From a virus (Duplodnaviria > Caudoviricetes): a DNA stretch of 37,948 bases. The stretch's first letter is position 1. The number at the start of each line of letters is the position of its first letter. Location: the IMG/VR virus record IMGVR_UViG_3300014872_000006, positions 1-37,948 of that record. The stretch is one strand, 5' to 3'. Below the pieces are notes generated by a model. That model was not told where the DNA came from. It saw only the letters and a program-made list of their open reading frames with translations, and ran no database searches. Made by a program: the position numbers and the translations under genes. This document shows positions 9,559-30,497 of this stretch, piece by piece.

Positions 9559-9559
9559 C

Positions 9560-10579: not shown

Positions 10580-11159
10580 CGATCCCAACGTCGGGTTTGC
10601 CGTTTACTTCCGGAGACGCCAGCAGGCCTGCGATCGCCGCAATTCTCTGCTGGTGTTCACCAGCTAGCTGAAGGCGCTCGGCCCATTCCGCCGTCAAATC
10701 CTCTCTGCAAGTCGAGTGATCAAAGTGGAGGAAGGTTTCAGCGCTTACCTCAACCTCAATGTTGAGGCTAACAAACCCAACACGGTAGTCGATGCCACTT
10801 ACGCAAAGCGCAGCTTCGTGGCTGATTGCTGGTGCGACGAGCAAGCCCTGGATTTCGACATAATCTTCAGCGTTTTCTTCCAGCAGGTCTTTCGCTTCGC
10901 CCAATGCTCCCATGTAAGACAGCAACTGCGTCACCTCGGAGGTTTCTATTCGGTCTTTCTTGATCTCAATAACCACAATCTCCAGAAAACTTCCACCGCC
11001 GTCCCCATAGCGTCTGTGAGCCCCGGCTAGGACGTCGAGGACCCCACCGTTTGCAAGGCTCATTTGGCGGCCAATCACAAAGGTGCCTTTCCCTGCTACT
11101 GATTCGATGTTGTTGCAGACCCAGTCTTCAAGGTCCTTCTCAAGAAATTCGACGTGCAT
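10569..11159 (-). CDS. NucS/DUF91-like PD-(D/E)XK endonuclease
   Basis: LEKDLEDWV..GRQ..G.LDVLA..VVIEIKK..QLLSYM..GLLVAP; ATG at 11159 with GGAGG RBS. Confidence 0.75.
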   Translation of the reverse strand: MHVEFLEKDLEDWVCNNIESVAGKGTFVIGRQMSLANGGVLDVLAGAHRRYGDGGGSFLEIVVIEIKKDRIETSEVTQLLSYMGALGEAKDLLEENAEDYVEIQGLLVAPAISHEAALCVSGIDYRVGFVSLNIEVEVSAETFLHFDHSTCREDLTAEWAERLQLAGEHQQRIAAIAGLLASPEVNGKPDVGIDGL

Positions 11160-11170
11160 CGCCCCACCTC

Positions 11171-11899
11171 CTACACGTTCAGCAGTTCGAGCTGTGCGGC
11201 TGCGCTCTCCAGCGCCTTGGCAGAATGACCGTCGGTACTGAACCGCTCGGATTCTGACCGCAGCCCGTACAGCGTGATGACGTCGGCAAAGTCCTCGAAG
11301 TCGTGCGTGCGCAGCTGGACCGTGTTGTTGTCCCCTGCCTGCAGGTGCTCGAGCTCGTGGTGGATGAGCCGTTGGCGATCCTTGTCGGTAAGAGTGCACC
11401 ACTGAAGGAAGTCGAGCGTGATGAGCGCGTCGTATTCGGTCAGGTATCGCATTTTGCCGGGCAGCTTGGCAGCGGTACCCAGGCGGCCGCGTCCATTTAC
11501 AGGTGTGATCTTCTTGGCCATGACAATGGCGATACGTCGACCCGCCAGGTCGCGGCGGTACCGCTCGAGCACGAACGCCGTGATGTGCTCCGCTTCCGGG
11601 TGAGTCATGAAGTCGCTGGTCTCCTGCCAGTCCCCATTCTTCAAGCGCTCGGCGGGCGAGAGCCATTCCAGCTCCAGATCCAGGAGCAGGCCGGAGTCGT
11701 TTTCCATGAGGTCGAGCCGGCTCCTGTTCTTGCGCCCCTCGTTCGTTGCGGGATCAAGCGCGTTGCCGGCTTCCATGACTGCGCGCAGCCGGGCAATGCG
11801 TTCAGCGGTGGTGCGCTCGCTCGGTGGGTAGATGCGTGTTTCGTGGATCTTTGCAGCGAAGATCGGATCGCTGATTGCCAATACCAGCAACTTCACCAT
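11171..11899 (-). CDS. Putative phage metallopeptidase (HExxH)
   Basis: LG.AAK..YD.LI.L...W..L...R..LIHHELEH..HDFEDF..V...YG; AGGAGG RBS before ATG 11899. Confidence 0.8.
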   Translation of the reverse strand: MVKLLVLAISDPIFAAKIHETRIYPPSERTTAERIARLRAVMEAGNALDPATNEGRKNRSRLDLMENDSGLLLDLELEWLSPAERLKNGDWQETSDFMTHPEAEHITAFVLERYRRDLAGRRIAIVMAKKITPVNGRGRLGTAAKLPGKMRYLTEYDALITLDFLQWCTLTDKDRQRLIHHELEHLQAGDNNTVQLRTHDFEDFADVITLYGLRSESERFSTDGHSAKALESAAAQLELLNV

Positions 11900-11927
11900 T
11901 GCTACCTCCTGCGGAAGGTGATGGCCA

Positions 11928-12380
11928 TCATTGGCCTCGCATGCATGCCGGGCAGAGACACTCAGCCCAGGTTGGTTGCCATGTTGTTCGGAGATCTTCA
12001 GTGAGCTCGACCAGGACGCCGTAGCTGTAGACCAGGGAGTCACGAAAGCCGTGCGAGTAGTCAGGGTTGCCCAGGGCCGGATCCCAAATGGGTCGACCGC
12101 AATAACCAACAACCGAATGCCCGCGCGATCGCGTGCCGTAGTTGATCAGGTGCCATCCAGCGGGCTGCACAACCTTGGTGACCTCAGGCTCCAGCTCGAC
12201 GTAGACCTGCTCGTGGTGTTTGGAGAGCCACGTGTTGATGGTGTTGATCCAGGATCCGCCGGCAGCTTCGATCGCGCGGTAGTCAGGCACACGCCCGATC
12301 GGGATCTCGAGGATGCTCGCCCAGCAAGCCGCCATGCAGTTGCCGCGGCCGTTCGCGTTCGTCTGCCGGACCGGGATCAT
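11928..12380 (-). CDS. Hypothetical protein with a papain/C39-like Cys-His-Asp pattern
   Basis: Q..GNCMAAC.ASIL, HSVV and WDP motifs. Confidence 0.55.
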   Translation of the reverse strand: MIPVRQTNANGRGNCMAACWASILEIPIGRVPDYRAIEAAGGSWINTINTWLSKHHEQVYVELEPEVTKVVQPAGWHLINYGTRSRGHSVVGYCGRPIWDPALGNPDYSHGFRDSLVYSYGVLVELTEDLRTTWQPTWAECLCPACMRGQ

Positions 12381-14194
12381 CAGTCCAGCCCTTCAGGAAA
12401 GAGCAGGTCCGTGGCTGCGACATGCGTTTTCGACACGTCGCGCATGAGACCAGGCGTGCGCAAGTCGCTCAGGTAATTCCGGAACGTCCCGGTTGTGTGC
12501 GAAATGTTGATCGCGGCGCCGAGCTCCTCGCGACTGATCGGGTCGGGATACGCGTCGATCAGCACACGCAGCATGTTCGACTGCGTGCCTCCGAGCTTGT
12601 TGAACCAGATCGCGTGAAGAGTGTCGTGGTCCGGCACATCGATGTCGGCCGCCTCGAGCATACCCAGGTCGGTGAGCGCGAGCCGATTGCCGGACCGGTC
12701 CTCGATCAGCCCAGCTCTGCGCAAGTCGCTCAGGTAATTGCGGAACGTGCCCGTGCTGGCGGAGATATCGCACCAGCCAGCAACGGTCGTGCGCTCCGCT
12801 TCCTCGACTCCCAGCGTGTGCAGCGCACCGAGAGCGTCGAGCATCTTGCGCGGAGTGGATCCGAGCGCGGCGCGCGCACCTGTCGCTGATTGAGGTTCGC
12901 CTGACGCGCTCCCACTTTGCCTACTTCCGCGTGGCACCGACGAGCGGTGGTGACTGCTTCGCGTGTCAGGCGCTGTATGCGTTGGTGTCGCGTGACCGTT
13001 CGTTGCCTTTGGTACCGCGGCCGCGACGTCCTGGAGCTCAAACTGCGTAAGGGGCACGATTTGACTCAGCAACGCCCCAACCTTCGTCAGGCGCTTGCCG
13101 AGGTCGCCGATCTGCCCGCGCAGTTGCTTCTCGCGTTTCGCCTGCTCAAGGACCAATGCGCGTGCGTGCTCGACATCCCCGCGCATTTGCTTCTTTGCGT
13201 CAGCGACCGCCAACTCGATCGCCCGACTGGCTACGACGTTCGATACCTGCGCTCCGGGCCGTTCCAACTCGCGAATTCGGCGCTGCATGCGTCCGACCTG
13301 TTCGCGCAGCTCGGACTCGGTCTTCGCTTCCTCCTCGGCACGCTTTGCCAGGTCGTGCAGCTGCGTGATGACCTTCTGCACGGCCGCGGGTGGCGGCGGC
13401 GCCGGCGGTGCGATCGCGCCTGGTTGCGGATGAGTGGTGACGATTGGACCCGATCGGACCTTTACGACGGTGCGCGAGATCGCAGGACCGAACGCGTAGA
13501 ACTCGCCCGGCTCCAGGTCGCGGAGCTGCAGCCGCGCCTCTTTGTCCATGCCGAGCTCGTCGCCGGCGCGCTTCAGGTCGACATCGAGCCCAGTGCGGCC
13601 GATCAGTTTGTTGAGCTGCTCGGCTGCGGCATCCTTGTGCAGTTTGCTGATGCGCTGCGTGGCCAGCACCGCGGCAAACCCGCGTTTGCGTCCCTGCGTG
13701 CAGAGTGCGATCGCCGCTTCGGTTGATTCCGCCTCGCCGGAGCCGCGCTCCGGGATGAAGACGTGCGCCTCATCGATCACGACCAGCAGCGGCCGCCAAA
13801 GTGAGCGCGGCAGGTGCATCAGCTCTTCGAGGAACAGGCGAACGAAACGCCGGCGTTGATCCAGCGGCAGGTCGTACAGATCGATGACAGCGGATGCGCT
13901 CAGCTCGAGAAGCCGGCGCGCGAGCAGCTTCGCGGTCTTCGGTTCGGCCGGCACGTCACCATCGCGACCGGCCAAGAGGTAGCCAAACCTCTCGCGCAGC
14001 GTGGCAAACTCGCCTTCGGGGTCGAGCACGATCTGCTGGATCCGGCCGTGGGTCTGCTCGAGCAGGTAACGCAGCATGCGGCTCTTGCCGCCACCGCTGT
14101 TGGCCTGGATGAGCAACCGGGATGCGACCAGCTGGTTCAGGTCGACCCGCACGCCGCCGTCGCCGGGGTGGAAGAGAATGGGTGGCGCCGTCAT
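12380..14194 (-). CDS. HerA/DUF87-like P-loop ATPase with coiled coil and two C-terminal wHTH repeats
   Basis: ANSGGGKS (Walker A), LDPEGE, VIDEAH (Walker B), GRKRG..ATQR; duplicated TGTFRNYLSDLR. Confidence 0.85.
   Translation of the reverse strand: MTAPPILFHPGDGGVRVDLNQLVASRLLIQANSGGGKSRMLRYLLEQTHGRIQQIVLDPEGEFATLRERFGYLLAGRDGDVPAEPKTAKLLARRLLELSASAVIDLYDLPLDQRRRFVRLFLEELMHLPRSLWRPLLVVIDEAHVFIPERGSGEAESTEAAIALCTQGRKRGFAAVLATQRISKLHKDAAAEQLNKLIGRTGLDVDLKRAGDELGMDKEARLQLRDLEPGEFYAFGPAISRTVVKVRSGPIVTTHPQPGAIAPPAPPPPAAVQKVITQLHDLAKRAEEEAKTESELREQVGRMQRRIRELERPGAQVSNVVASRAIELAVADAKKQMRGDVEHARALVLEQAKREKQLRGQIGDLGKRLTKVGALLSQIVPLTQFELQDVAAAVPKATNGHATPTHTAPDTRSSHHRSSVPRGSRQSGSASGEPQSATGARAALGSTPRKMLDALGALHTLGVEEAERTTVAGWCDISASTGTFRNYLSDLRRAGLIEDRSGNRLALTDLGMLEAADIDVPDHDTLHAIWFNKLGGTQSNMLRVLIDAYPDPISREELGAAINISHTTGTFRNYLSDLRTPGLMRDVSKTHVAATDLLFPEGLD
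12457..12748. repeat. Intragenic direct repeat (31 bp, 1 mismatch, 261 bp apart)
   Basis: TGCGCAAGTCGCTCAGGTAATT(C/G)CGGAACGT at 12457 and 12718. Confidence 0.85.
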
Positions 14195-14382
14195 CGACGT
14201 GCCGCCTTTCGCCCGGCCCACTCATTCTTCCGGCGCCGCGTCCGCTTTTTCACGGCCGCGCGGAACCGCTCACCCAGCAGCTTGCCGCGGCCCTGGTCGT
14301 CGGTGATGGACCGCGCGTGACGCTCGCCAGGCCTACCGACGTAGAGGGTGGCCTTCTTTTTGACCTTCTTTAGCAGGCTCAT
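14191..14382 (-). CDS. Small basic hypothetical protein
   Basis: Lys/Arg-rich; stop overlaps the HerA start. Confidence 0.55.
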   Translation of the reverse strand: MSLLKKVKKKATLYVGRPGERHARSITDDQGRGKLLGERFRAAVKKRTRRRKNEWAGRKAARR

Positions 14383-14403
14383 ACCGCACCTGCCTCGATG
14401 GCA

Positions 14404-14612
14404 TGTTGGGAAATGTGTACATTTCGGGGCACCTTTCGGGTGCGCCGATCAGTACGGAGGGCGAATAGAGGGTGGCCGGAGTCGCCGCTAACTACTGATT
14501 TGGCAAGGAATGCAGGTTTTAGAGGGTTGCATCTTGCACTCCTACAAGATATGTAAAGGTTAGCCCGGCCCAACACGTTTCCGGGGGTGTGTTGGGAAAA
14601 CTGTACTTTCGG
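14404..14612. other. Candidate attP site (arm repeats plus core)
   Basis: Downstream of int. Direct repeats TGTTGGGAAA-N2-TGTAC(A)TTTCGG at 14404 and 14590, an inverted CCCAACAC at 14569, and a core-like ATCTTG-N8-CAAGAT at 14531-14550. Confidence 0.6.
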
Positions 14613-14631
14613 TGTAGCGATCGGCCTCATC

Positions 14632-15894
14632 TTAAACCAGTGCCTCATCCATTGCCGCGTCCGCCCGCGCCTCGTCTTCCGCGATGGCATGCGCGTAGGT
14701 GTCCAGGAGTACTGCCGGTGTATCTCCGAGCCGCTTGGCCGCGGTTGTGATCGGTACGTTCTTGCTCAGCATCCAAGTGGCGCAGGTGTGCCGGAGCGAG
14801 TGCAGCGTGAGCGACTTCGCATCGCCGCGGCCGTACGGCAGGTCAGCTGCCACGAAGCAGCTCTGCACCCATATCGTTGCCGTCTGGTCGCTGATCGGCG
14901 AGTCACGGTGCAGCGATCGGAAGAAAAACTTCTCGCCGGCATAGGCCACCGCGTGGTGCTCGAATAGCGGGCGCAGCCTGGTCGGGATCGGCACATCGCG
15001 CACGCTGTTCTCCGTTTTCGCCGTCCACTTGTGCTCGCCCTTCCGGTCCTGGATCCGCAGCCGCGGCCGGGCACCGTTCAGGATCACATCGTCGACGGTG
15101 CGCAGGTACATGATCTCACGCCGGCGCAGCCCGAGGATGCCGGCGGCCAGGAAGGCCGCATACCGTGTCCCTGCGACCTCGTCGTGGTTGATCAGGTGCT
15201 TCCATTGAGCAGGCGTCAGGAACGCGTGGCGCGTCTTCCTGCGCTTCGGCACACGGGCCCGCTTCCATGGGTTGCGCGTCACTGAGGCCATTGCCTGCGC
15301 CTTCTCGGCGGCCTCTGCCTCCTGCTCGATCACCATGTTCCACAGCGCGCGGTACGCCTTGCGGGCCGTGGACTGCGTCTGGGCCGCCCAGGGTGCGCCG
15401 CCTGTCGTTTCCTTCGGCTCGTGCAGGAACTTCTCGGCGGCTTCAATGGTCAGCTGCGCCATCGGGTGGTCAGCGCCGAGGCTGCGCTCGAGCTGGGCCA
15501 GCACGTACTGGTAGTCCTTCACCGACTGATCAGCCAGCGTTGCACGGGCGCGCTGCATGAAGCGCTCGATCGCCGCACCGAGCCGGGTGCCGTCCGCGGT
15601 GATCCGTTTGATCCTGGCGTAGTCGCCCTCCCGCACGGCACGCGAGATGTCCGAGATGTCCAGCTCGCTTCGCCGCCAGCGTTCGATCACCGACCAGTCG
15701 CCGCGCTCGGCCATGGTGTTTAGCGCGCTCGCGTACGCGATGGCCACGTCTTCGCGGTCGCGGCCAACCCGCAATGATTTGACAATGCGGCCGCCTTCGA
15801 GCCGCGCATGCTCACGCTCGTAGTAGGCGGCTCCGCGGCGCCACCGTAGACCGGCGGTCACAGCCTGAGGCCTGCGGCGTTTCTTACGCGGCAT
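14632..15894 (-). CDS. int: Tyrosine recombinase / integrase
   Basis: GLRRREI (R), AKTENS (K), HSLRH, LGD and TYAH (Y) catalytic motifs. Confidence 0.92.
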   Translation of the reverse strand: MPRKKRRRPQAVTAGLRWRRGAAYYEREHARLEGGRIVKSLRVGRDREDVAIAYASALNTMAERGDWSVIERWRRSELDISDISRAVREGDYARIKRITADGTRLGAAIERFMQRARATLADQSVKDYQYVLAQLERSLGADHPMAQLTIEAAEKFLHEPKETTGGAPWAAQTQSTARKAYRALWNMVIEQEAEAAEKAQAMASVTRNPWKRARVPKRRKTRHAFLTPAQWKHLINHDEVAGTRYAAFLAAGILGLRRREIMYLRTVDDVILNGARPRLRIQDRKGEHKWTAKTENSVRDVPIPTRLRPLFEHHAVAYAGEKFFFRSLHRDSPISDQTATIWVQSCFVAADLPYGRGDAKSLTLHSLRHTCATWMLSKNVPITTAAKRLGDTPAVLLDTYAHAIAEDEARADAAMDEALV

Positions 15895-16123
15895 TCGCTG
15901 CTTTCCTCGTGCGCCGAGCTTCAAACTCATCCAACCACTCGTCCTTGAACCGCCAGTCGGGTCGGGTTTCGCCGGGCTTCCGGCTCGCGTCGAACGCAGT
16001 GAGCTCGCCGGCGCCTATCCATTCATAGATCTGGTCATCACCAACGCCACCCAGGCGGGCGGCCGCCTCGCGAGTCGTGCGCCAGAGATAGAGCGCCTCC
16101 TGGCGTTTACCTTCACGCGGCAC
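15884..16123 (-). CDS. xis: Excisionase-like HTH protein
   Basis: TTREAAARLG....IYEWI..GEL.A...WRF...LDEF; AGGAGG RBS, GTG start; overlaps int. Confidence 0.8.
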   Translation of the reverse strand: MPREGKRQEALYLWRTTREAAARLGGVGDDQIYEWIGAGELTAFDASRKPGETRPDWRFKDEWLDEFEARRTRKAANAA

Positions 16124-16997
16124 GTTTCCTCCTGCGTGCGGTGATCTGACGGAACTCGTAGTCATCGATGCCGAACGCATCCTGCAGTACTTCAGCCGCG
16201 CAGCCATACGCCGCGGCCATCCGGATCTCCTTCACGTCGTCTGCTGAGAGCTGCGGCGCCGCCGGTACCGGAATCGGCGCCGTGCGCCCGGTCGCGAGAT
16301 TTACGAAAGCACCGCGATGCTCGAGCTCGCCTTTCAGGAACAGGCGGGACAGGAGAGCGAGCGCATGATTGGCCAGCAACTGGTTGACGAACGGCGCCTG
16401 GCGGGTCAGCGCCTCGAGGGCGCTGCAGCTCGGCAGCTGGTCATCATCCAGCGTGTTGGCAGGATCGACCAGCTCGGGCCATTCTTCCGCGGCCGTCGGC
16501 AGCCGGCGTGAGGTCGAGTGCTCTGACAGAGGCTGTCCCAGCAGGAACTGGCCATCATCTGCGCGGTTGCCGATGTCCAGCCAGTAGTCCGACGAGGTGT
16601 TGGTAGCCACCTGGTGGATGATCGATCGCGCGGCGCGCGTGTCGACGCAGCCGATCAGAATGCAGTTGCGCCACCACACGAGCTTCTCGTGTTTGGGGTT
16701 CAGATGCATCCCGATCGCGCTCCAGCTCAAACCCCAGAACGTGTTGATGCGCGTGACCAGCGTTACGGCCTTGTTCAGCCCAACGTCGGAGATAGAGAAC
16801 GGCTGTCTAACACAGTTGGCCGGCGTGATCTCGTCGCCATCGTAGACCGTCACATTCAGCCCGTGCGGATGGCCGCGCGCGATCAAAGCGTGGTGCAGGT
16901 ACACGAGCCCGCTCACGATCGCGGAACCGGTACCGCCGCAGCCTATCACGCGTACGTTGATCTCACGCTCGAGGAATTTCGCGGGGAGCCTATGCAT
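16113..16997 (-). CDS. PRTRC system ThiF (E1-like) protein with C-terminal HTH-like extension
   Basis: VIGCGGTGS, DGD.I..AN.VRQ.F...DVG.NKA..L..RIN, GCVDT..AR, YWLD.GN and PSCS..EAL.RQ..FVN motifs. Confidence 0.92.
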   Translation of the reverse strand: MHRLPAKFLEREINVRVIGCGGTGSAIVSGLVYLHHALIARGHPHGLNVTVYDGDEITPANCVRQPFSISDVGLNKAVTLVTRINTFWGLSWSAIGMHLNPKHEKLVWWRNCILIGCVDTRAARSIIHQVATNTSSDYWLDIGNRADDGQFLLGQPLSEHSTSRRLPTAAEEWPELVDPANTLDDDQLPSCSALEALTRQAPFVNQLLANHALALLSRLFLKGELEHRGAFVNLATGRTAPIPVPAAPQLSADDVKEIRMAAAYGCAAEVLQDAFGIDDYEFRQITARRRKRAA

Positions 16998-17733
16998 CGC
17001 CGGCCTTCCCCTCGATGAAGCGCTGCAGCGTTTGCCTGGCCAAGACCAGGCTGTCAGTCGGGAACGATTTCTTGTTGCCGCGCGGCCCGGCGAGCGCGCG
17101 CCACAGTCCGATCACGCCACCCTTGTGTGAAGTCGAGGCCTTCGCGGAGAACTGATCGAATACGTGCGTGAACTCGGCTGCGAAATAGCCGTCCTCCCAT
17201 TCCGCAAGGGAGGATGTGTTCAGCACCTCCGGCTTCTTCATGGTACCCTGGCAGACCAATCCCTCGCTGTTCGTGTTCCAGAACGGCGCCTTGAAGAGCG
17301 GCGTCTTTGCCCCGGGCCGCTTCGATTCCTTCAGCGCGCGGATATGGATCTCCCGGCCGGCGGCGCGCCACACGAGCGCGGGCAGCGGGAAGTGTTTGCC
17401 CGACACCTTGCCCAGTTCGGACTCTTTCCGGAAGAACAGCGGCCGCGTGCACGCCGGCGTCCACCACACCACGATGTGCGGCGTGCGGCAAAGCACCGTC
17501 TCAGGCAGGATCTCCGGCTTCAGCTTCTCGCCGAGGCCGTGGGCGAGCTCCTGAAGGAATGACATCGTGACCAGCTGCCCGGCCGCCAGCCGCGGCGCGC
17601 GACCATCACGACCCATCACACCGTGGACGGTGGCGTAGGTGCCGCCGCCGAGCGGCGAGTAGTTCTCGTAGACCAGGATGGCATGCTTGAGCCGCAGCTC
17701 ACTCGACTGGCCGATCCGCACATTCGCGTTCAT
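16990..17733 (-). CDS. PRTRC system protein B (prokaryotic E2 family D)
   Basis: VWWTP...R.LFF, P.PALVW, L..APFWN....G.VC.G and WE..YF...FTH motifs. Confidence 0.9.
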   Translation of the reverse strand: MNANVRIGQSSELRLKHAILVYENYSPLGGGTYATVHGVMGRDGRAPRLAAGQLVTMSFLQELAHGLGEKLKPEILPETVLCRTPHIVVWWTPACTRPLFFRKESELGKVSGKHFPLPALVWRAAGREIHIRALKESKRPGAKTPLFKAPFWNTNSEGLVCQGTMKKPEVLNTSSLAEWEDGYFAAEFTHVFDQFSAKASTSHKGGVIGLWRALAGPRGNKKSFPTDSLVLARQTLQRFIEGKAGDA

Positions 17734-18872
17734 ACCGTCACCAGCACATTCACGAGCGCGGCCGGATCAGCTACCGTGGGCAGACTGTCGATCAACCGTT
17801 TCGTCATGCCCAGCACGCGGCAGGCCTGCACGACCAGGTCATGCGCACGTCGCACGGAATCGAGATCGGTAATGTCGAACCGGACTACATACGAGGGTGC
17901 CGCGTCCTCACCCGCCTGCGATCGCTCCCAGCAATACTGATCGTACACTCCATCCAGCGTGTCGCCAGCGTCGATGCCCAGATAGAAGCCGGGCCAGGGC
18001 GGCATCACATCCATGTCGTATAGCTGGTCCATCACCTTTTCATTGTCCCTCTGCAGGCCTCGGGTGGCATCGAGGAGCGCGAGCAGGTCCGTAAAGAGGC
18101 GTAACGCGGTCGGGTCCTGGATCCTGCAAAGCCGGTCACGGAGTGTGCGCAGCGAGTAGGGCTTGCGATGCAGCGACGCCGGTACCATCTGCTTCACCCG
18201 CGCGTCCATCTCCTCGAAGCTCAACGCGTCCACGTCCAGCTTGCTGTCCTCCGCATCGAGCAGGAATCCCACGGCCAGCTCTACGCACCCGTCATTCTCG
18301 ATGCTGTGCCAGCTGTACGCCCAGGTGACCGAATACATGGCGCGCAGCAGCAGCTCGTGGAACGTGACGGGGAAACGCGGATCCACGCGATCGAGCAGCC
18401 GGATCGTGTTGCCGAGGTGGACAGGCACGTACGCGCCCGCGAAGACCACGATGTAAAAGAGGTTCGGGTGCTCCGACTCCTCGTCGCCGCGCGAGAACGC
18501 GGCCACCAGGTCGTGCAGGAGCATGGCATCGAGCGAGTTGACGCGAGGGAGATCGCCGTAGCCCTCGCTGATCCAGCGCTGCAGCGTGCGTTCGATGAAC
18601 TTCAGCGGGTTCTTCTTCGAGCGCACCCAGTCATCAGCCGTTGCCACGCTGGCGAGCATGAGCGCACGGGTGCAACGCAGCACTTCGCGATCGCCACCGC
18701 GCAGCTGCAGACGGCCGTCGACACCGCGCAGGCTGGGAAGCGCTACACCGGTGGCAGGAGCGATCCCGCAGGCGGCAACAACCGGGTCTGGTCCTGGCCG
18801 AACCGATTGCGGGCGCCCAATGCCCTCAACAGCAGATTCGCCGCTTTGCGCGGCTCGGGCTGCGATTGCCAT
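17730..18872 (-). CDS. PRTRC system protein F-like
   Basis: Position between C and B, size and N-terminal ALPSL motif; start uncertain. Confidence 0.7.
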   Translation of the reverse strand: MAIAARAAQSGESAVEGIGRPQSVRPGPDPVVAACGIAPATGVALPSLRGVDGRLQLRGGDREVLRCTRALMLASVATADDWVRSKKNPLKFIERTLQRWISEGYGDLPRVNSLDAMLLHDLVAAFSRGDEESEHPNLFYIVVFAGAYVPVHLGNTIRLLDRVDPRFPVTFHELLLRAMYSVTWAYSWHSIENDGCVELAVGFLLDAEDSKLDVDALSFEEMDARVKQMVPASLHRKPYSLRTLRDRLCRIQDPTALRLFTDLLALLDATRGLQRDNEKVMDQLYDMDVMPPWPGFYLGIDAGDTLDGVYDQYCWERSQAGEDAAPSYVVRFDITDLDSVRRAHDLVVQACRVLGMTKRLIDSLPTVADPAALVNVLVTV

Positions 18873-18956
18873 TCCTCGATCAGCCTTTCCTGCGCGGATT
18901 GGCCGATTCCGGCTTCCGCGCGATCGAGGTCGTCGAGTACTCGCTGCGTCGCGTCA

Positions 18957-19148
18957 TCAACCTTTGGCTCCGACGGCGCGTGCGAACGTGAAGATCTGGT
19001 CTTCGCCCGATTTCCTCGGGCCCGTGACGCTGGCATTGGCGAGCTCCGGGTGCGTGACGGAATGGAGATCACGCACCTGCTCCGGCTTCATGGCCGGATC
19101 CGGGTCGTTCAGCTCCATTCCGTTGTACATGAACTTCCTGGCCATCAT
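18957..19148 (-). CDS. PRTRC system protein C (prokaryotic ubiquitin-like, Prok_Ub)
   Basis: RKF.YNG.EL.DPDP.M.PEQV...S..HPELANA.V.GP..F....VGAKG, ending in an exposed Gly. Confidence 0.92.
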   Translation of the reverse strand: MMARKFMYNGMELNDPDPAMKPEQVRDLHSVTHPELANASVTGPRKSGEDQIFTFARAVGAKG

Positions 19149-20761
19149 GCCTCCGCGGGCGCGTTCACGCCCAGCAGGTTGGTGACGTATGCTGGCAGCC
19201 GCGCAAGCAGCTGCGCCTCCAGCTCCGCGGCCGTGCCGCTGACCGTGAGTGGGGCGATCTGTTGTTTGGATTGGATCTGCTTGGGCGTGACCACGATGCA
19301 GATGGTCTCGCTCGGTTGGGCCAGGCGCGCGATGGCCAGTGTGACGCTGCAGTCATCCAGCAGCGGCAGCAGCGCACCGATGAATCCACCGACTGACGGC
19401 TCCTCGCCACCCTCGGCGACTAACTCACGGTCTGCGGCCAGTGCGGAGCGGGCAACTTCAGCTGAGGGCTCGCATCTGCTGCACACGCCGAGGCCTCGCT
19501 CCCGGTCGACCGCCGTCCATACGCAGCCGCCGACGCATGCTTCCGAATCCTTGCAACCGCAGTAGATGCAGACCGCCTCGGCTACTTCAGCTGCATGTGC
19601 GTCGATGTGCATTGGTGTGTCTGAATGCGCAGGCTCGGCCGGAACCTCGGGCTCGCGAACCGCGAACCCGAGTGCGGAGTCATCAGGTGCCGGCTCTTCA
19701 ACTACCGCATGCTCCACCTCCTTTTCCGCTGTGGGAGTGGCCTGCGCTGCCTGCTCTTCGATGTCCTCCTGCTTGAAACGTTTCTTGCCGGCTGGCTTCT
19801 TCGCTTTACGCTGCGCGGCCTGCAGCTCCTTCAGCCGCTTCTCGATCGCAGACACGCGCTTCTTCTGCCCGATCTTCTTCCTCACGACCTTCAGCACGGC
19901 GTTGCAATCCTCGATCGTGGCGTTGTTCAGCGCGCCCTTGAAGCTCGAGGCCTCGATCTTGTGATTGGTCAGCGCATTGACCCGCTGTTTGCTCTGGTCT
20001 ACGCCGGGCGCCTTCTTCGCTGGCGCCGCTGCCGCTGCGCCCTTCGCCATCGTTTCCTGTACCGGCGCCGGCGCGCTATAGATCTCGGCCAGCTTGGTCA
20101 CCATGGGCCCGAGCCACACACGCGTGACCGGCTCACGCGCATCCGCGCGCGCATTGATCTGCGTCAGCAGCGTGCGGAAGAATCGATAGCGGATGGACGG
20201 CTCCTCCTTTGCCCAGCGCACCAGCTGATCGCGGGCCAGCGACCAGGCGAGCACGCCGGCGTCGATCAGCTCGCGCACCTCGTCCGGCAGCTGCAGCAGC
20301 GAGAGCATGTTCGCCACGTGCGACTGGTCGCGGCCGATGCGGCGCCCGATCTCCGACTGCGTGATGTCGGGCTCGTACTCGAAGTACTTCGCGTAGCCGG
20401 CAGCCTCCTCGAGGGCGGTCAGGTCATTGCGCCCGAGGTTCTCGATCAGCGCGATCGTCAGGCACTGCGCCGGCGTCAGGTTGACCAGGCGCACGGGCAG
20501 GCGCGCACCGGGCACGCGGCTCGCGCCGCGCCAGCGGGACTCACCGCTGATGATGAGGGCCCTGCCGCCGTTCGCCGGTTGCTGCGCGACCAGGTTCTGC
20601 AGCACGCCCACCTCGGCGATCGACGCGGCCAGCTCGGCGATCTTCGCCTCAACGAAATTCCGGCGCGGCTGCCACGGCCCGGGCTCGAGCTGGTCGGGAT
20701 CGTGCATGACGATGCCGCTGTCGTCGCTGCGCTCCCAGTCGAGCATCAGCTGGCCGCTCAT
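19145..20761 (-). CDS. parB: ParB-family protein fused to a Cys-rich Zn module and a C-terminal PRTRC protein E domain
   Basis: QPRR.F..I.ELA.SI...GVLQ..SGESRWR..ALIENL.R.DLT.LEEA plus HTH; CIYCGC..AC.GGC.W..CSRC; F...L.PLL..IVVTP..PLTVSGTAAELE..L. Confidence 0.85.
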   Translation of the reverse strand: MSGQLMLDWERSDDSGIVMHDPDQLEPGPWQPRRNFVEAKIAELAASIAEVGVLQNLVAQQPANGGRALIISGESRWRGASRVPGARLPVRLVNLTPAQCLTIALIENLGRNDLTALEEAAGYAKYFEYEPDITQSEIGRRIGRDQSHVANMLSLLQLPDEVRELIDAGVLAWSLARDQLVRWAKEEPSIRYRFFRTLLTQINARADAREPVTRVWLGPMVTKLAEIYSAPAPVQETMAKGAAAAAPAKKAPGVDQSKQRVNALTNHKIEASSFKGALNNATIEDCNAVLKVVRKKIGQKKRVSAIEKRLKELQAAQRKAKKPAGKKRFKQEDIEEQAAQATPTAEKEVEHAVVEEPAPDDSALGFAVREPEVPAEPAHSDTPMHIDAHAAEVAEAVCIYCGCKDSEACVGGCVWTAVDRERGLGVCSRCEPSAEVARSALAADRELVAEGGEEPSVGGFIGALLPLLDDCSVTLAIARLAQPSETICIVVTPKQIQSKQQIAPLTVSGTAAELEAQLLARLPAYVTNLLGVNAPAEA

Positions 20762-21921: not shown

Positions 21922-22171
21922 TTGGCGCCTCCGCGATAACAGTTGAACGGAGAGCAGCAACCGCGCGTTGCATTTCGCGAGTGGCCCGCGCGAGCTGCTC
22001 AATTCCTTGAAGCCGGCGCATCCCGCGCCGATAAATCGTTGGATCCATGATCGGACCGCCGGCATGAGCCAGACTGATCGCGTCCAGGAACCCGTCCAGG
22101 TCCAGATTGTCAGTCAGAGTTCCGATGAACAGGAGCTGCTGCTGTGTCGTGGCATATTCTTCCGTGGTCAC
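21911..22171 (-). CDS. Hypothetical protein
   Basis: GTG start overlaps the SMC stop; GGAGG RBS. Confidence 0.6.
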   Translation of the reverse strand: MTTEEYATTQQQLLFIGTLTDNLDLDGFLDAISLAHAGGPIMDPTIYRRGMRRLQGIEQLARATREMQRAVAALRSTVIAEAPNAG

Positions 22172-24168
22172 GCTACCGCCTCCATCTCCACGCACTCGCT
22201 ACCGAGCTGATGAATCGTCCAGCCTTCCACGTCCGGGAAGGTGCAGCAGCCCGCGATGATCACGTTGCCCAGCACGTCCGACATCTTTCGCAGCCCATCC
22301 AGGAGCCAGCGCCGGCGCGTGGTGTCGATCGCTTCCGCGTTGTCGAGCAGCAGGACCGGCCAGGCCGGCTGCACCGTGGCCACCAGCGCCGCGACCAGCA
22401 CCACGGCCAGGAAGGCATCCTCGCCCGTGCTGGCGGCGTCGTAGCTGCGGAACACGCCGTCTTCCTCGAAACCAAAATCAAACGTGTCACGACCTTCACG
22501 CTCGAAAATGAACCTGAAGGTTTTTGCGGGGTCGATGGCGTAAAGCAGCTCATTGGCGCGCGACTCGACCGGCCCGACGAGCTGCTCAATCACGTGCGCG
22601 CGCAGCTTCTGCTGGTTCTGCTTCAGTGTACCGAGCGCCTCGGACTTTGCTGTGCGTTTGGCCAGCTCGTGACGTTCGCGATCGGCGCGCGCGCGGTCAG
22701 CTTCCGCCCTGCCTGCACGCTGCGCGAGCTCCTGCTCCGCGCGGATCGCATTCTGGATGGTGGTGATCCGTGCGGTTGGCGCGGCTTCGTCCTGCAGCTC
22801 CTGGATCTCGAGCGCCGGGAGCGCGTCGAAGGCCTGCTTCTCGGATATGACCTCCTCCGCGCGCACCTGCAGTAAGTCCTCCCTACGCGCGTAGTCTTCC
22901 GCATCCGCGCGCCTGCGATGCAACAAGCTGAGCACTGTGTTCGCTTCTTGGACCTCTTGCGCTGCTGCTTCGACTTCCCGTTTCAGCTGGTCGTGATCTG
23001 CGCGCATGGCCAACGCCAGCTGCGACTTGTACTCGATCTGTTCACGCAGCTTCGCGCGTACCGTATCCAGGTGACCAGTATCCGCTTCGCACGTCGGGCA
23101 GGTGTTGTGATTCGCGATCGCAGTGAGCCGTTTCTGCACCTCGACCATCTCGGTCGTTTTGCTGCCCATCAATTCGGCGAGCTGCCCGAATGCGTCCCGC
23201 TTCTTGCCTTCCTCGAGCTGGCAGGCGTGCAGATGGAGGGTGGCATTGCCGAACTCCTCGTGCGTCGGGTTCTTTGGCGCGGCGGATGCCTGAAGACGAT
23301 TGAGCGCCGCGTTTACCTCCTCGAGGCGGCAGCGAAGGACCTCGCGCATGTGCTCCCGGTGCCGCTGCTCTGTGCGGGCCCGATCGGCGCGCGAGATCGC
23401 TTCTTGCCAGCGCGTGTTCGTTTCCGTGGCAACCTGCAGGTCGGCCTGCAAAGCAGTCAGGCGGTCCGGGTCGTAGTCGACCGACTCCGTAGCAGTCCGC
23501 GCGTCCTGGTCGGCGCGCTCGGCGATCGCGACCTGCTCGCGCCGCGCCTGCTCCGCGGCGTTGAATGCTTCGGTTGTGCGCTGCAGGGCGGTGGCCAGGC
23601 CGTCCAGAATCGATTCCGACGGTTCAACGTGTTCGTCCCACAGCTTCGTGATCGCCGACTGGATGAAAGACTCGGCGCCGTCGTAGCCTAGCCAGCGCCG
23701 CCACTCCGCCACGTCGAGATTCGCGATGCTGCGCGGCAGGATCCGCAGCAGAAACTCGCGGCGCTTCTCCGCGGACAGATCCAGGAACGCGGCCAGGTCA
23801 AAGGAGGGAATAAACGCGCCAGTTTCCCGATCGATGCGCGACTGCAGTTCTTTTTCAGTTCTTTCATTTCGCGTCGGGTGGACGCGTGTGACCGTGGATG
23901 CGCCCAGCCGTCGATCGATTTCGAATCCATCCGAGAAGCCGAGCGTGATGGCCATGTCCGAGTAGCCATCGGCGAGCAGCTTCCGCGTGTCCTTCAGCGT
24001 CTTGCCCAGTGACGGCTCGTATCCCAGCACGGCCAGCCGGATCGCTTCCAGTACTGCGGATTTCCCGGCGCCGTTCGGACCTGACAGCGCGAGGAACTGG
24101 GGGACCTCCATCGCCTCGCGGTCGTGGACCTTCAGCCCGTCGATGTAGATGCGCGTGAGCCGCTTCAT
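22168..24168 (-). CDS. SMC/SbcC/Rad50-like ABC ATPase
   Basis: GPNGAGKS, long coiled coil with CPTC zinc hook, STGE signature and LLLDNAE Walker B. Confidence 0.88.
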   Translation of the reverse strand: MKRLTRIYIDGLKVHDREAMEVPQFLALSGPNGAGKSAVLEAIRLAVLGYEPSLGKTLKDTRKLLADGYSDMAITLGFSDGFEIDRRLGASTVTRVHPTRNERTEKELQSRIDRETGAFIPSFDLAAFLDLSAEKRREFLLRILPRSIANLDVAEWRRWLGYDGAESFIQSAITKLWDEHVEPSESILDGLATALQRTTEAFNAAEQARREQVAIAERADQDARTATESVDYDPDRLTALQADLQVATETNTRWQEAISRADRARTEQRHREHMREVLRCRLEEVNAALNRLQASAAPKNPTHEEFGNATLHLHACQLEEGKKRDAFGQLAELMGSKTTEMVEVQKRLTAIANHNTCPTCEADTGHLDTVRAKLREQIEYKSQLALAMRADHDQLKREVEAAAQEVQEANTVLSLLHRRRADAEDYARREDLLQVRAEEVISEKQAFDALPALEIQELQDEAAPTARITTIQNAIRAEQELAQRAGRAEADRARADRERHELAKRTAKSEALGTLKQNQQKLRAHVIEQLVGPVESRANELLYAIDPAKTFRFIFEREGRDTFDFGFEEDGVFRSYDAASTGEDAFLAVVLVAALVATVQPAWPVLLLDNAEAIDTTRRRWLLDGLRKMSDVLGNVIIAGCCTFPDVEGWTIHQLGSECVEMEAVA

Positions 24169-24347
24169 TGGTGCACCGTCGTCTGATGCTCGACAACTTC
24201 GGGATCCGACCAGTCCCAACCCCAGATCAGCCCCTCCTGGAGTGCCGCGTGCAAATTCTTGCCAAGCGCGATGCTTGCCATCACCGCCTTCACCATCAAC
24301 TCGTCGTATGTATCGGGCAGATACACGGTCAGCGCGATTTTCTTCAA
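24165..24347 (-). CDS. Hypothetical protein
   Basis: 4-nt start/stop overlaps on both sides. Confidence 0.6.
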   Translation of the reverse strand: MKKIALTVYLPDTYDELMVKAVMASIALGKNLHAALQEGLIWGWDWSDPEVVEHQTTVHQ

Positions 24348-25519
24348 AGTACTGCCTCCACTTGCTTGGACCTGCCGGTGGTCTTCTTCACGCGTGGATC
24401 CGCAACACGACGGTACTGGAACCGTGCGGTGGTGTTGGTCTCGATCACACCATCAACCGCGGCCACGGCTTGCGCCGGCAGCCGCTTCTTCAGTTTGTCC
24501 AGCTCATCCAGGTCGACGCGCCACAGTCTGTCGGATGGTTCGATGCCCTGCTCGGTGAGGACGCGCTTCAGGTCCGTGGCTGTCACCGCGCGCTCGTGAA
24601 TGGGACCGAAGCCGTAGCTGCCCTCGCCGACCTGGATGAATCCTTTCGGGTGCGTGCCGCCGAGGTAGCGCTTCAGACGCTCCTTTGCGGAGGATGCGAA
24701 GGCCTCGACCGCCACCACATCGCCGGCCAGGCGCTGCGCAGCCGCGTCATCCTCGATTGAGAGATCATCGATGGCGCGATCACGGAGCTGGCGGATGCGC
24801 GGGCACGTGTGCGTATGACTACACAGCGTGCACCAGTTGCCCGGCGTGGCCTCGAAATCGTTGTTGCGCTCGCGGTCCATCGCGGTCGCGATCTCCTGCA
24901 CCAGGTCAATCTCAACCTGCCGCAGGTCGTCGGCGGTGATCACCATCGATTGGTAGTTGTTGCTGTAGCGGACGAACCGCTTCACCAGCTCGAATTCCGT
25001 GAACGCCGGATAGTTGTGGCGGAGCAGGAGAGCGTACCGCGGCAGCTGCTTGCCCGCCTCGAACTGCTGCCGATTCTCAGGAGCCCAGGCGGTCTTCCAG
25101 TCATCAATGCGGACACGCGTCCTAGTCACACGCGAGGCCAGATCGGGTGTGCCGAAGAAGATCACCTGCTCACCCAGCACGTCGACGATCTTTTCGAGCC
25201 GCTCCTCGATCAGGAATGCGGCTTTCGGATCGATGTCGACGTCCTCGGCCAAGGACTCGGTGAACTTGCTGAGCACCTGAAGCGCGTCGAAGTACTCCAT
25301 GTCAGAGCCGCGCACGACGCGGTACGCGATTTCGTGGATGTTCAGGATGGGCGATCCGCTTACGATCTCATGGACGGCAGCGCGCACGGCTGCGTGCACG
25401 TTGGATCCACCGTGCAGCGCTGGCGATGGCATCGGCGGTGTGTGGTCGACGTACGCCTCTTTGTACGCCCAACCGCATTCGCCATAGAGCCGCAGCTGAC
25501 TGTTTCGGAAGGCCTTCAT
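24344..25519 (-). CDS. PD-(D/E)XK (RecB/AddB/Cas4-like) exonuclease
   Basis: SQL..Y..C, G..VH, G.PD..IDDWKT, QL.RYA and C-terminal C..C.....C cluster. Confidence 0.88.
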   Translation of the reverse strand: MKAFRNSQLRLYGECGWAYKEAYVDHTPPMPSPALHGGSNVHAAVRAAVHEIVSGSPILNIHEIAYRVVRGSDMEYFDALQVLSKFTESLAEDVDIDPKAAFLIEERLEKIVDVLGEQVIFFGTPDLASRVTRTRVRIDDWKTAWAPENRQQFEAGKQLPRYALLLRHNYPAFTEFELVKRFVRYSNNYQSMVITADDLRQVEIDLVQEIATAMDRERNNDFEATPGNWCTLCSHTHTCPRIRQLRDRAIDDLSIEDDAAAQRLAGDVVAVEAFASSAKERLKRYLGGTHPKGFIQVGEGSYGFGPIHERAVTATDLKRVLTEQGIEPSDRLWRVDLDELDKLKKRLPAQAVAAVDGVIETNTTARFQYRRVADPRVKKTTGRSKQVEAVL

Positions 25520-25851
25520 GACAGCGGCTCCTGCTGGCCTTCGATCCACCAGTGCTTGACGTGCGGGGCCTTGAAGTACTTCAGAGGGCCGCCGCCGCGG
25601 AGCACCGCGTAGTTCGCACTTCGCTGCACCTGGCCACTGCTGCTGCACCACATGTAGTGGTGCCAGACGATCTTCATCGCGTTGATATCGATGTAGCCGA
25701 TCGTGCGCGGGGCTGGAGTCATGATCTGCAACTCCATTATGCCATCGCCGCGGAGTGGCCCGATGTACAACTCGTCGGCCATGTTCCGCTTGCCGATCTG
25801 AGCGAACTCGATCATTCGGACCAGCTCGGTCACCGCGATGCGCAAGATCAT
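25516..25851 (-). CDS. Hypothetical protein
   Basis: ATGA overlaps at both ends. Confidence 0.55.
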   Translation of the reverse strand: MILRIAVTELVRMIEFAQIGKRNMADELYIGPLRGDGIMELQIMTPAPRTIGYIDINAMKIVWHHYMWCSSSGQVQRSANYAVLRGGGPLKYFKAPHVKHWWIEGQQEPLS

Positions 25852-26999
25852 TTCGGGAACAGCTCCAGCGCCTGGTCGGAGGCCTGCGCCGCCCGCTGCT
25901 GCGCCTGCTGTGCAGCGAGCTGCTCGCCCGCCTGCTTCCACTCGCTGGGCAGCTCGGACTCGAGTTTCAGCGCGAGCGACGAGATCTCGTCGCTGTATTT
26001 GGCGATCTGTTTGTTGATCTTGTCGGGCGTGTATTTGGCCAGCTGCAGCGCGAGCCGGCACCATTCCTCCAGCGGATGCGCCTCCTCGTCTTCGCTCACC
26101 GTCTCGTAGTCTGGATCCGACTCCGCAGTACCGGCAGCCGGATGGAATTCGGACACGATCTCCTGGCTGTCTTCCTGCTCGACTTGCTGGACTGCCTCGG
26201 CGTGTTGCTCGGGCGTGTATTCGCCGGCAGTGATCTGCAGCGCCGTGGCGCGCTGAGCCTGCGCGCGCGCCGCGATCTGGAACGCAGCCTCCATGTTGCC
26301 GCGCAGCACGAGGGAAACTGCAAAGGCCTTCGAGGTCTTGGCCTGGCCGTTCTCCTCATAGGAAACGGTGTGTGGGTAGACGATCAGCTTGAACGGGATC
26401 CAGGAGAGGATGCCAAAGTTCTTCTTGAACAGCTTCAGCGCTTCAGTGAGGGAGTTTATCGTTTCCCAGCTCGTGGTGCGGAACACGTGGAAGCCGCCGT
26501 ACACAGACGCGGCCTCGAGGAAGAAGCTGAGCACGCCGTAAGGCTTGCACTGCACCTGGCCAACCGGTCGCGGGAATGAAGTCAGCGGATAGTCGCCCTT
26601 GTGCTGCCTGAGCAGCGGACACGTGCACTGGATCTCTTTGTTGAGCACGCGATCGAACGCGCGCGCGCCGTTACCCTGGCAGCGCACCTTCGAATCCTGC
26701 CACGCGGTCAACGACGTCTTGAAGTTCTGCTCCGGCTCATCCCACAGGAACCGGATGTCGATTTCCGTGGGCGCCGGGCCGATGCGATCGTGGACACCTT
26801 TGTCGAGCAGGTAGTTGTTGTCGGCGCCGCGCACGCGTGTGCGGATCCGGAAGTGATCGTACTTTTCCGGGATGTTGAACTTCTTGCCGCCTCCCGATTT
26901 CACCTCTTTGCCTTTGCCACCGATCTTCACGTAGCCGATGCACGCCAGCTTCGGCCGCAGCACGCTCGACACGATGCCGTTGAATTCGGGCGCGCTCAC
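25848..26999 (-). CDS. Gp3-like recombination protein (RDF-like family)
   Basis: IGYVKIG.KG..PEK.DHF..CKP.G.L.F.L..GG...FRTTSW.TI..L; next to the exonuclease. Confidence 0.75.
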   Translation of the reverse strand: MSAPEFNGIVSSVLRPKLACIGYVKIGGKGKEVKSGGGKKFNIPEKYDHFRIRTRVRGADNNYLLDKGVHDRIGPAPTEIDIRFLWDEPEQNFKTSLTAWQDSKVRCQGNGARAFDRVLNKEIQCTCPLLRQHKGDYPLTSFPRPVGQVQCKPYGVLSFFLEAASVYGGFHVFRTTSWETINSLTEALKLFKKNFGILSWIPFKLIVYPHTVSYEENGQAKTSKAFAVSLVLRGNMEAAFQIAARAQAQRATALQITAGEYTPEQHAEAVQQVEQEDSQEIVSEFHPAAGTAESDPDYETVSEDEEAHPLEEWCRLALQLAKYTPDKINKQIAKYSDEISSLALKLESELPSEWKQAGEQLAAQQAQQRAAQASDQALELFPK

Positions 27000-27268
27000 G
27001 AGGCACGCTCCTGACGCTGCGAGGCTACTGCGACTGGCCAAGGCATGCGGAGGATCCGCGCCGCCTGTCGCAGCACATCGGCGGCGCTTTGCCAGACGTG
27101 AGCGAGGAGGGTAGACGTTGCGGCGCGGTCGTAGACTTGCGCGAGCTGCTCGGCATCGGCGTGCTTGACCAGGTCGGCCGCCAGGATGCCGGCGACGTAC
27201 TTCCACTGATCGCGCTCCGCCTCGGCGCGTGTCAGCTTCAGCTCGAGCTCGCGGGCGTACGGGATCAC
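26996..27268 (-). CDS. Hypothetical protein
   Basis: Coupled ORF. Confidence 0.6.
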   Translation of the reverse strand: MIPYARELELKLTRAEAERDQWKYVAGILAADLVKHADAEQLAQVYDRAATSTLLAHVWQSAADVLRQAARILRMPWPVAVASQRQERAS

Positions 27269-28150: not shown

Positions 28151-28260
28151 AAAGTCGTCGGTCTCTCCCGACAGTCCTCCATTGATCCGATCGCCGGTTG
28201 CAGGAGCGGCGACTTCCCCGGAGTCATCGCGGACCGATGAAAGCCCCATCCGGTTAGCAG

Positions 28261-28332
28261 TTGCGGGGGCACGGTTCGAACGTGCGACCTCCGGGTTATG
28301 GGCCCGGCGAGCTACCACTGCTCCACCCCGCG
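28261..28332 (-). tRNA. tRNA-Met(CAT), initiator (fMet) type, no encoded CCA
   Basis: CGCGGGG/CCCCGCA with C1xA72 mismatch, three G-C pairs in the anticodon stem, loop CCCATAA, T arm GCACG-TTCGAAC-CGTGC. Confidence 0.93.
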
Positions 28333-29172: not shown

Positions 29173-29199
29173 GCGGCCCTCACGATTTCAATCACGCGG

Positions 29200-29616: not shown

Positions 29617-29759
29617 GTATTCACAGCCGTTTGATTGTTGACTTTCCGTAATGCTCGAAAACAGATTCGGCACACATCGCTGTCGTTCGTTCCACGCTTC
29701 CACCCGTTGTGACTTTCCTCTTTGGGCAGTTTTGCCGGGCCATCGTTGCCGTATGTCAT
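29613..29759 (-). CDS. Small hypothetical protein
   Basis: ATGA overlaps at both ends; CRIC motif. Confidence 0.5.
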   Translation of the reverse strand: MTYGNDGPAKLPKEESHNGWKRGTNDSDVCRICFRALRKVNNQTAVNT

Positions 29760-30492: not shown

Positions 30493-30497
30493 GTGTT

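What the first reader, a model, noticed from the sequence alone, without database searches (positions are those of the whole stretch)
16113..20761. Phage-encoded PRTRC ubiquitin-like conjugation cassette coupled to xis-int
Seen: ParB-E, a Ub-like protein C ending in AKG, F, an E2-like B with its VC.G cysteine, and an E1-like ThiF with the PSCS cysteine. These form a largely overlapping run that continues directly into xis and int. Known: PRTRC cassettes are E1/E2/Ubl/JAB/ParB modules described mainly from plasmids and ICEs, with unknown function. Inference: a temperate phage expresses a near-complete Ub-like tagging pathway early in infection. It could modify phage or host proteins, influence the excision/replication decision, or counter host defence.
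Basis: partly seen in the sequence, partly recalled or inferred. Interest (0 to 1): 0.85.

Follow-up and report, generated by a model that had tools for sequence, protein, structure and literature searches.

The report
Protease-less phage ubiquitin-like tagging cassette
A temperate phage carries an intact, protease-less version of a catalogued but untested bacterial ubiquitin-like gene set (PRTRC), predicted to tag proteins and likely acting at replicating DNA; such cassettes are already known from other phages, and its place next to the integration genes is likely positional.

Summary
Observation confirmed. ThiF, B and C pass PRTRC cut-offs, F and E are divergent homologs, the named cysteines are invariant, and all genes overlap through xis-like and int. 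C ends at KG, as in 86 of 88 JAB-less cassettes; 54 of 55 JAB-bearing ones extend past KG (only 3-4 independent lineages). Phage-borne PRTRC is not new: it is in phages Dina, YO105_4 and BgVeeders33, in print for AB2, and in 57 IMG/VR contigs, 33 with int/xis downstream. The closest cassette (64-87% identical) sits before an unrelated integrase, so coupling to xis-int looks positional. Likely mechanism: ThiF Cys191 to B Cys161 to a target lysine, tethered to DNA by a ParB-E fusion with a clamp-motif-like N-terminus. Clamp genes and clamp-like E tails recur in relatives. No conjugation or binding is shown, and I found no functional study. This scan reported JAB-less phage PRTRC and the clamp lead before on other DNA. 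New variant of a known kind; interest 0.5.

The parts
19145..20761 (-). ParB-E fusion (538 aa): N-terminal clamp-motif-like QLMLDW (aa 4-9), ParB N domain plus HTH, Cys-rich segment (aa 398-430), PRTRC E domain at the C-terminus without E's usual disordered tail
   Evidence: same fusion and motif in L007 at 64% identity
18957..19148 (-). PRTRC protein C, ubiquitin-like, ends at A-K-G (no extension)
   Evidence: TIGR03738 and PF14454 above cut-off; G60, K62, G63 invariant in 14 of 14 rows
18743..19036 (-). Small uncalled gene X in the +1 frame of C; conserved core 18743-18961; start uncertain (ATG 19036 inside C is the best candidate)
   Evidence: 74% identical over 72 aa in L007 with third-position bias; 4 called relatives; family in 81 of 102 JAB-less loci; not in the protein collection as such
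17730..18872 (-). PRTRC protein F, fast-diverging, no clear known fold; first ~43 codons overlap X
16990..17733 (-). PRTRC protein B, E2-like, Cys161 and His190
   Evidence: TIGR03737 and PF14460 above cut-off; model matches E2 folds weakly but consistently
16113..16997 (-). PRTRC ThiF, E1-like: GCGGTG loop, NCVRQ, PSC191S; extra ~50-aa C-terminal helix-turn-helix-like tail
15884..16123 (-). Excisionase-like HTH gene (likely start GTG 16123 after AGGAGG); neighbour, not part of the cassette
   Evidence: (below cut-offs)
14632..15894 (-). Tyrosine integrase (likely start ATG 15894); neighbour
   Evidence: PF00589 40 bits > 27.1; motifs located
14383..14631 (.). Intergenic attP-like region with 20-nt direct repeats (14404-14423, 14590-14609) and an 8-nt inverted copy
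   Evidence: role as attP inferred; no joint seen there

Best explanation
The phage carries an intact, JAB-less PRTRC cassette that is predicted to attach its ubiquitin-like protein C to other proteins and likely does so at replicating DNA, to the phage's benefit. Shown: gene content, order, intact reading frames, invariant catalytic-type residues, and a tag that ends at its terminal glycine. Inferred by analogy with Bil and eukaryotic cascades: ThiF adenylates C Gly63 and forms a thioester at Cys191, passes C to B Cys161, and B transfers it to a target lysine. Inferred from motifs and neighbours: the ParB-E fusion tethers the machinery to DNA and, through its N-terminal QLMLDW, to the host beta sliding clamp, while F and X would select the substrate. 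Without JAB no maturation is needed and the mark would be one-way unless a host enzyme removes it. The likely target is the clamp or a clamp-associated replication/repair protein. The xis-int neighbours only share the operon.
For: Chemistry: invariant Cys191 and Cys161, near-invariant His190 and invariant Gly63. His after Cys is the 6d signature in Iyer 2006 (PMC1779556, passages). The B model (pLDDT 88) returns E2/UBC-type entries in nearly all of the top 32 rows, Z 3.0-4.8. C termini track JAB: 86 of 88 distinct JAB-less C proteins end at GxKG and none extends; 54 of 55 JAB-bearing ones extend. DUB pre-processing of a Ubl is shown for Bil (10.1101/2023.09.26.559546, passages). Clamp link: dnaN lies downstream of ThiF in 6 of 224 fetched loci and near the cassette in 2 of 8 plasmid loci. 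Short SLF/QxxL-type motifs occur in 119 of 127 distinct E tails against a shuffle mean of 4.2. The fused E has lost that tail, while QLMLDW at the N-terminus is the only match to my clamp pattern among 31 window proteins and is kept in L007. ThiF carries an HTH-like tail.
Against: No conjugate, thioester or binding is shown here or in papers found. E2 fold scores are low (best Z 4.8, rmsd 4.7; Foldseek none at E<=0.001). ThiF has no solved sequence relative at E<=0.01. The JAB/C-end pattern rests on about 4 label changes in a quick tree, and 3 of 6 JAB-bearing plasmid cassettes also end at KG, so the rule is one-way. The E-tail patterns were chosen after seeing the sequences and the rows are related; a stricter Q-x-x-L-F-type pattern matched only 21 of 133. 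QLMLDW departs from QL[SD]LF (PMC12867686, passages); the hexamer form it resembles is recalled. dnaN is absent from most loci and from this contig. None of the 57 viral loci had a hit to my ParB profile, so ParB tethering is not general.
Confidence: 0.42

Rival explanations
1. Conflict function: the cassette tags a host defence protein or a competing phage's protein (counter-defence or superinfection exclusion), the reverse use of Bil-type chemistry.
For: Characterised bacterial Ubl pathways are antiphage (PMC11601596, passages). F diverges faster than ThiF and B between the two nearest cassettes (about 50% against 72% and 71%). Protein B is a recurrent mutational hotspot tied to a DGR in a P. 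vulgatus prophage (10.64898/2026.10.01.756045, passages).
Against: The cassette lies in the recombination/replication operon, not among the plus-strand accessory genes. The same cassette is on plasmids near dnaN and ssb. This rival and the clamp model can both hold.
Confidence: 0.2
2. Not protein conjugation: ThiF makes a C-terminal thiocarboxylate or acyl-disulfide on C (ThiS/MoaD-like) for sulfur transfer or a DNA or small-molecule modification.
For: ThiF scores weakly with sulfur-carrier adenylyltransferase models. The E2 fold is distant.
Against: No cysteine desulfurase, rhodanese or cofactor gene in the contig. An invariant Cys in an E2-like partner has no role in that chemistry. Iyer 2006 notes no metabolic links for these operons.
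Confidence: 0.12
3. Partition or maintenance module for a plasmid-like prophage state.
For: ParB with GESRWRG and ENLGRNDL motifs. The attP-like region is continuous in assembled contigs. PMC13366799 proposes a partitioning role.
Against: No ParA recognised in the contig (56% complete). Integrase present. L007 is integrated beside tRNA-Gln. No ParB hit in 57 viral cassettes. Plasmid isolation of AB2 failed.
Confidence: 0.1
4. Dispensable or selfish passenger module spreading among mobile elements.
For: Patchy spread: 2 of 401 genomes in the putative host phylum, 302 of 72,556 plasmid records, 5 of 50,697 phage records for B.
Against: Frames intact and synonymous-biased divergence from L007. 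The addiction model of Iyer 2006 needs an opposing JAB, which is absent.
Confidence: 0.09
5. The cassette controls excision or the lysis-lysogeny decision by modifying Xis or Int.
For: ThiF, xis-like and int overlap without gaps. An xis-like gene follows ThiF within 76 nt in 3 of 57 viral loci.
Against: The nearest cassette precedes an integrase with no detectable similarity (best E 0.14). In most viral loci other DNA intervenes. Most of the 8 plasmid cassettes have no adjacent integrase.
Confidence: 0.07

Closest known systems
PRTRC (ParB-Related, ThiF-Related Cassette; TIGR03734-03742), operon type 6d of Iyer, Burroughs and Aravind 2006 (PMC1779556)
   Same: Order ParB, E, C, F, B, ThiF matches plasmid cassettes such as pMOL28; ThiF, B and C pass the family cut-offs; E2 Cys with downstream His.
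   Different: No JAB protein A; ParB fused to a tail-less E; ParB is not of the PRTRC ParB family by score; ThiF has an HTH-like tail; F below the family cut-off; protein D not tested.
PRTRC of phages Dina (NC_055026), YO105_4, BgVeeders33 and AB2 (PMC13366799)
   Same: Temperate-type tailed phages; cassette in the operon that runs towards int or an xis-like gene.
   Different: Dina, YO105_4 and BgVeeders33 keep JAB and have C with a 62-67-residue extension; ThiF only about 40% identical; no ParB-E fusion.
JAB-less PRTRC clade of Acidobacteriota genomes and P. aeruginosa megaplasmids
   Same: B directly followed by ThiF, C ending at KG, X between C and F; the window falls in one JAB-less clade with the Acidobacteriota rows (SH-aLRT 97).
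   Different: Those have a stand-alone E with a motif-bearing tail; some carry their own dnaN; the P. aeruginosa row is a separate lineage.
Bil (BilABCD) and Bub bacterial ubiquitination systems
   Same: Ubl plus E1 plus E2 cascade, conjugation shown experimentally. This is the 'works like' model.
   Different: Host antiphage systems with a JAB peptidase; different E1 architecture (zinc site and CYS domain in BilD; Tyr/Ser oxyesters in Bub). Not a member.

Membership tests
PRTRC / type 6d | ThiF family E1-like protein | tested here: met
   TIGR03736 264.9 > 144.75
PRTRC / type 6d | Protein B, E2-like with conserved Cys and downstream His | tested here: met
   TIGR03737 169.2 > 131.45; Cys161, His190; E2-like fold, weak
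PRTRC / type 6d | Protein C, Ubl with terminal Gly | tested here: met
   TIGR03738 92.4 > 45.95; ends AKG
PRTRC / type 6d | Protein F, fast-diverging helical protein | tested here: met
   TIGR03742 only 12.8 < 58.4 but full-length match E=1e-36 to an HMM of F rows from other loci
PRTRC / type 6d | Protein E | tested here: met
   Domain present, fused to ParB: TIGR03741 28.9 < 37.95; E=5e-11 with HMM of 128 other E rows
PRTRC / type 6d | Protein A, JAB peptidase in the operon | tested here: not met
   No room between B and ThiF (8-nt overlap); JAB HMM finds nothing in six frames, best E 4.3, and no JAMM motif. Contig is 56% complete, so a distant copy is not excluded. Hence filed as a variant.
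PRTRC / type 6d | PRTRC-family ParB | tested here: not met
   TIGR03734 61.3 < 278.6; a generic ParB (TIGR00180 106.9 > 58.45) stands in the same position
PRTRC / type 6d | Protein D | not tested
   No dedicated search; none of the 11 proteins scanned matched a D model
Ub-like conjugation systems (Bil, Bub) | ATP-dependent Ubl~E1 and Ubl~E2 intermediates and target conjugates | not testable with these tools
   Needs biochemistry
BilABCD | E1 with zinc-binding cysteines and a JAB DUB | tested here: not met
   No invariant CxxC pairs in the ThiF alignment; no JAB; BilD features
Beta-clamp clients | QL[SD]LF-type motif that binds the clamp | tested here: inconclusive

The most novel reading that the evidence does not exclude
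Temperate phages and plasmids use PRTRC to covalently tag the bacterial beta sliding clamp, or a protein riding on it, with a ubiquitin-like modifier: a bacterial counterpart of PCNA ubiquitylation, deployed by mobile elements to redirect the host replisome. In this JAB-less form the mark is one-way and a ParB-E fusion confines it to the phage's own DNA.
Probability: 0.15. Interest if true: 0.9.

Novelty: new variant of a known kind. Interest (0 to 1): 0.5.

Why it matters
Type 6d/PRTRC is a widespread bacterial E1-E2-Ubl operon class for which my searches found no functional study. The characterised relatives are host defences; PRTRC rides on phages and plasmids. This version is a minimal test system: the tag needs no protease, catalytic residues are clear, and it makes specific predictions (Cys191, Cys161, Gly63, QLMLDW, gene X). 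If it tags the clamp, it adds a new way for mobile elements to control host replication.

Tried and rejected
Direct ThiF scans of IMG/VR found nothing or little because patterns were too strict; the B profile worked. The TIGR03735 genome search of the window was blind (control rang nowhere), so JAB absence rests. Assembly error at the C stop: rejected, no indel in three DNA runs. X as a homolog of the C-terminal extensions of JAB-bearing C proteins: not shown (BLAST E 0.39; 0 of 55 extensions hit by the X profile); only position and a similar Pro-rich end suggest it. Dual-coding test for X's start inside C: uninformative. A programmed +1 frameshift at GGT-TGA cannot be excluded, but X frames vary across 81 loci (38 +1, 21 +2, 22 later) and most inspected have their own start. 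F fold: no match (Foldseek none; best VIA Z 5.2); Atlas blank. Promoter scan: 2 found, 2.5 expected. RNA run X23: scattered low-depth pieces over cassette and other regions alike, no evidence of expression. No repeated parS-like palindrome stood out. The careful tree did not finish; the quick tree is used. No supplementary files were read; those of PMC13366799 may list more phage cassettes.
Full report
Setting. The window is a whole IMG/VR record, linear and 56% complete. It is a temperate tailed phage: lambda-type portal and gpA terminase, DnaB, a repressor at 30444-31205 (+) facing a cro-like HTH gene, and one long minus-strand run of recombination genes, the cassette, xis-like, int, replication and packaging genes. 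It occurs in groundwater and freshwater-sediment runs (18 of 24 listed runs hold half the words or more, 4 may be the source). The nearest relatives of ThiF and F come from a Longimicrobiales MAG (72% and 48%), so a Gemmatimonadota host is inferred. That MAG (L007, handle G001) is flagged unpublished; the claims on conservation of X, of the ParB-E fusion and QLMLDW, on the integrase swap, the tRNA-Gln site and the host rest on it.

Observation. ThiF, B and C pass their PRTRC cut-offs; E, F and the PRTRC-type ParB do not. F matched an HMM of 61 other F rows over its full length (E=1e-36) and the E domain an HMM of 128 rows (E=5e-11). Cys191, Cys161 and Gly63 are invariant in their alignments. 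An AlphaFold2 model of B (pLDDT 88) returned E2/UBC-type entries in nearly all of the top 32 rows, at low scores (best Z 4.8, rmsd 4.7, 125 aligned). The F model (pLDDT 89) matched nothing clearly. All junctions overlap and three DNA runs show no indel.

First, no JAB protein A: B overlaps ThiF by 8 nt and a JAB HMM finds nothing in the contig. Second, a small gene X lies between C and F in C's +1 frame. It is 74% identical in L007 with substitutions biased to third positions (14, 13, 27), has 4 called relatives, and a profile of it hits 81 of 102 JAB-less loci (4 of 11 seeds were found with the window's X, 7 came from those loci). It has no start after C's stop; an ATG at 19036 with GGAG 7 nt upstream is present in both genomes. 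Third, ThiF has an HTH-like tail (TM 0.70-0.75 over about 45 residues, weak for so short a stretch).

JAB and the tag. Among 143 distinct C proteins from 158 loci holding C, B and ThiF, 54 of 55 with JAB extend past KG (one by a single residue), while 86 of 88 without JAB end at GxKG, one at RSKG and one is frameshifted. Of 8 plasmid loci, 3 of 6 with JAB end at KG, 3 extend, one JAB-less one ends at KG and one had no C in view. So an extension goes with JAB, but not the reverse. A quick tree of 48 ThiF rows needs 4 label changes, 3 forced, so this is a handful of independent events. It fits JAB as the maturation enzyme, as shown for Bil (passages).

Is the phage setting new? No. ThiF matches 7 of 50,697 phage records, 4 over 80% of its length (Dina twice, YO105_4, BgVeeders33). 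Dina's record names PRTRC A, B, C, E, F and ThiF. PMC13366799 (passages) describes the cassette in phage AB2, cites Dina and BgVeeders33, and says the function has not been studied. A bioRxiv preprint (passages) reports PRTRC B in a gut prophage. One B pattern confirmed 57 of 81 IMG/VR candidates; all 57 have C, B and ThiF hits, 54 JAB, 56 F, none ParB by my profile; many are close kin. This scan holds 36 earlier findings with these words.

Is it coupled to xis-int? Probably only by position. An integrase or xis-like hit lies downstream in 33 of 57 viral loci, mostly 1-5 kb away; an xis-like gene follows directly in 3. L007 keeps the cassette at 64-87% identity for ParB-E, C, X, B and ThiF (F 50%) but its integrase is unrelated (best E 0.14) and lies beside tRNA-Gln. 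Plasmid cassettes show the same ParB, E, C, F, B, (A), ThiF order, mostly without int.

What it may act on. Following earlier notes (e1-6079561, e1-6079551), I tested the clamp link. dnaN lies downstream of ThiF in 6 of 224 loci, many of them short, and near the cassette in 2 of 8 plasmid loci. E tails carry SLF- or QxxL-type motifs in 119 of 127 distinct sequences (shuffle mean 4.2, maximum 11; patterns chosen after inspection, rows related), but only 21 of 133 fit a stricter pattern. In this phage E has no tail, and the fusion starts with QLMLDW, the only hit to my clamp pattern in 31 window proteins, kept in L007. The consensus is QL[SD]LF (PMC12867686, passages); the six-residue form is recalled. 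The phage has no dnaN.

Mechanism and odds. Shown: parts, order, residues, mature tag. Inferred: Cys191 to Cys161 to lysine transfer (about 0.7), action at the clamp or replisome given conjugation (about 0.6), hence 0.42 overall; the clamp itself as target 0.15. Rivals: conflict function 0.2, sulfur-carrier chemistry 0.12, partition 0.1, passenger 0.09, excision control 0.07.

Literature seen: passages of PMC1779556, PMC13366799, 10.64898/2026.10.01.756045 (17), PMC11601596, 10.1101/2023.09.26.559546 (124), PMC3318190, 10.64898/2025.12.11.693706 (114), PMC12867686; search listings only for the rest (one search listed 40 of 45). None of these reports a functional test of PRTRC; the library lacks most subscription journals.

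Verdict. A real, intact PRTRC variant: JAB-less, ParB-E fused, HTH-tailed E1, with an overlooked gene X. It works like an E1-E2-Ubl cascade by inference and fails two canonical features (JAB, PRTRC-type ParB). The phage setting is known and the xis-int link looks incidental. Interest 0.5, for making an untested system class easy to test.

Noticed in passing
window 14383-14631 and 8182-14221: int and an attP-like region lie in mid-operon, upstream of the HerA-like, replication-initiator and DnaB genes on the same strand. Integration there would cut the replication and packaging genes off from the repressor-controlled promoter, so excision might switch them on.
   Followed up: partly
window 18743-19036; L225-L229, L231: An open small ORF with a Pro-rich end sits between C and the annotated F, overlapping F's start, also in canonical plasmid cassettes where it is unannotated: a possible extra PRTRC component.
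   Followed up: partly
window 16113-16268: ThiF has a ~50-aa HTH-like tail shared by 10 of 25 aligned homologs.
   Followed up: partly
window 19472-19570: Cys-rich segment (CxxC...C...CxxC) inside ParB-E, kept in L007, no Pfam match; probably zinc-binding.
   Followed up: partly
window 11171-12380: Phage metallopeptidase match (PF18894, E 3.5e-18) three genes downstream of int; not a JAB, but the only peptidase-like gene seen and a remote candidate for tag removal.
   Followed up: no
window 22168-27305: SMC/RecF-like ATPase, PD-(D/E)XK nuclease and Gp3-like recombination genes upstream of the cassette.
   Followed up: no
window 28260-28332: tRNA-Met(CAT) in the early operon; a variant in run X1 replaces 28855-29778 with 743 other bases.
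   Followed up: no
window 34559-35169: HicA/HicB-like toxin-antitoxin pair on the plus strand; phage Dina also has one.
   Followed up: no
L235 10938-15495: JAB-less cassette in G107 with two tandem F-like genes and C ending in VNG.
   Followed up: partly
10.64898/2026.10.01.756045: PRTRC protein B reported as a DGR-linked mutational hotspot in a gut prophage, a hint that B surfaces meet variable targets.
   Followed up: no
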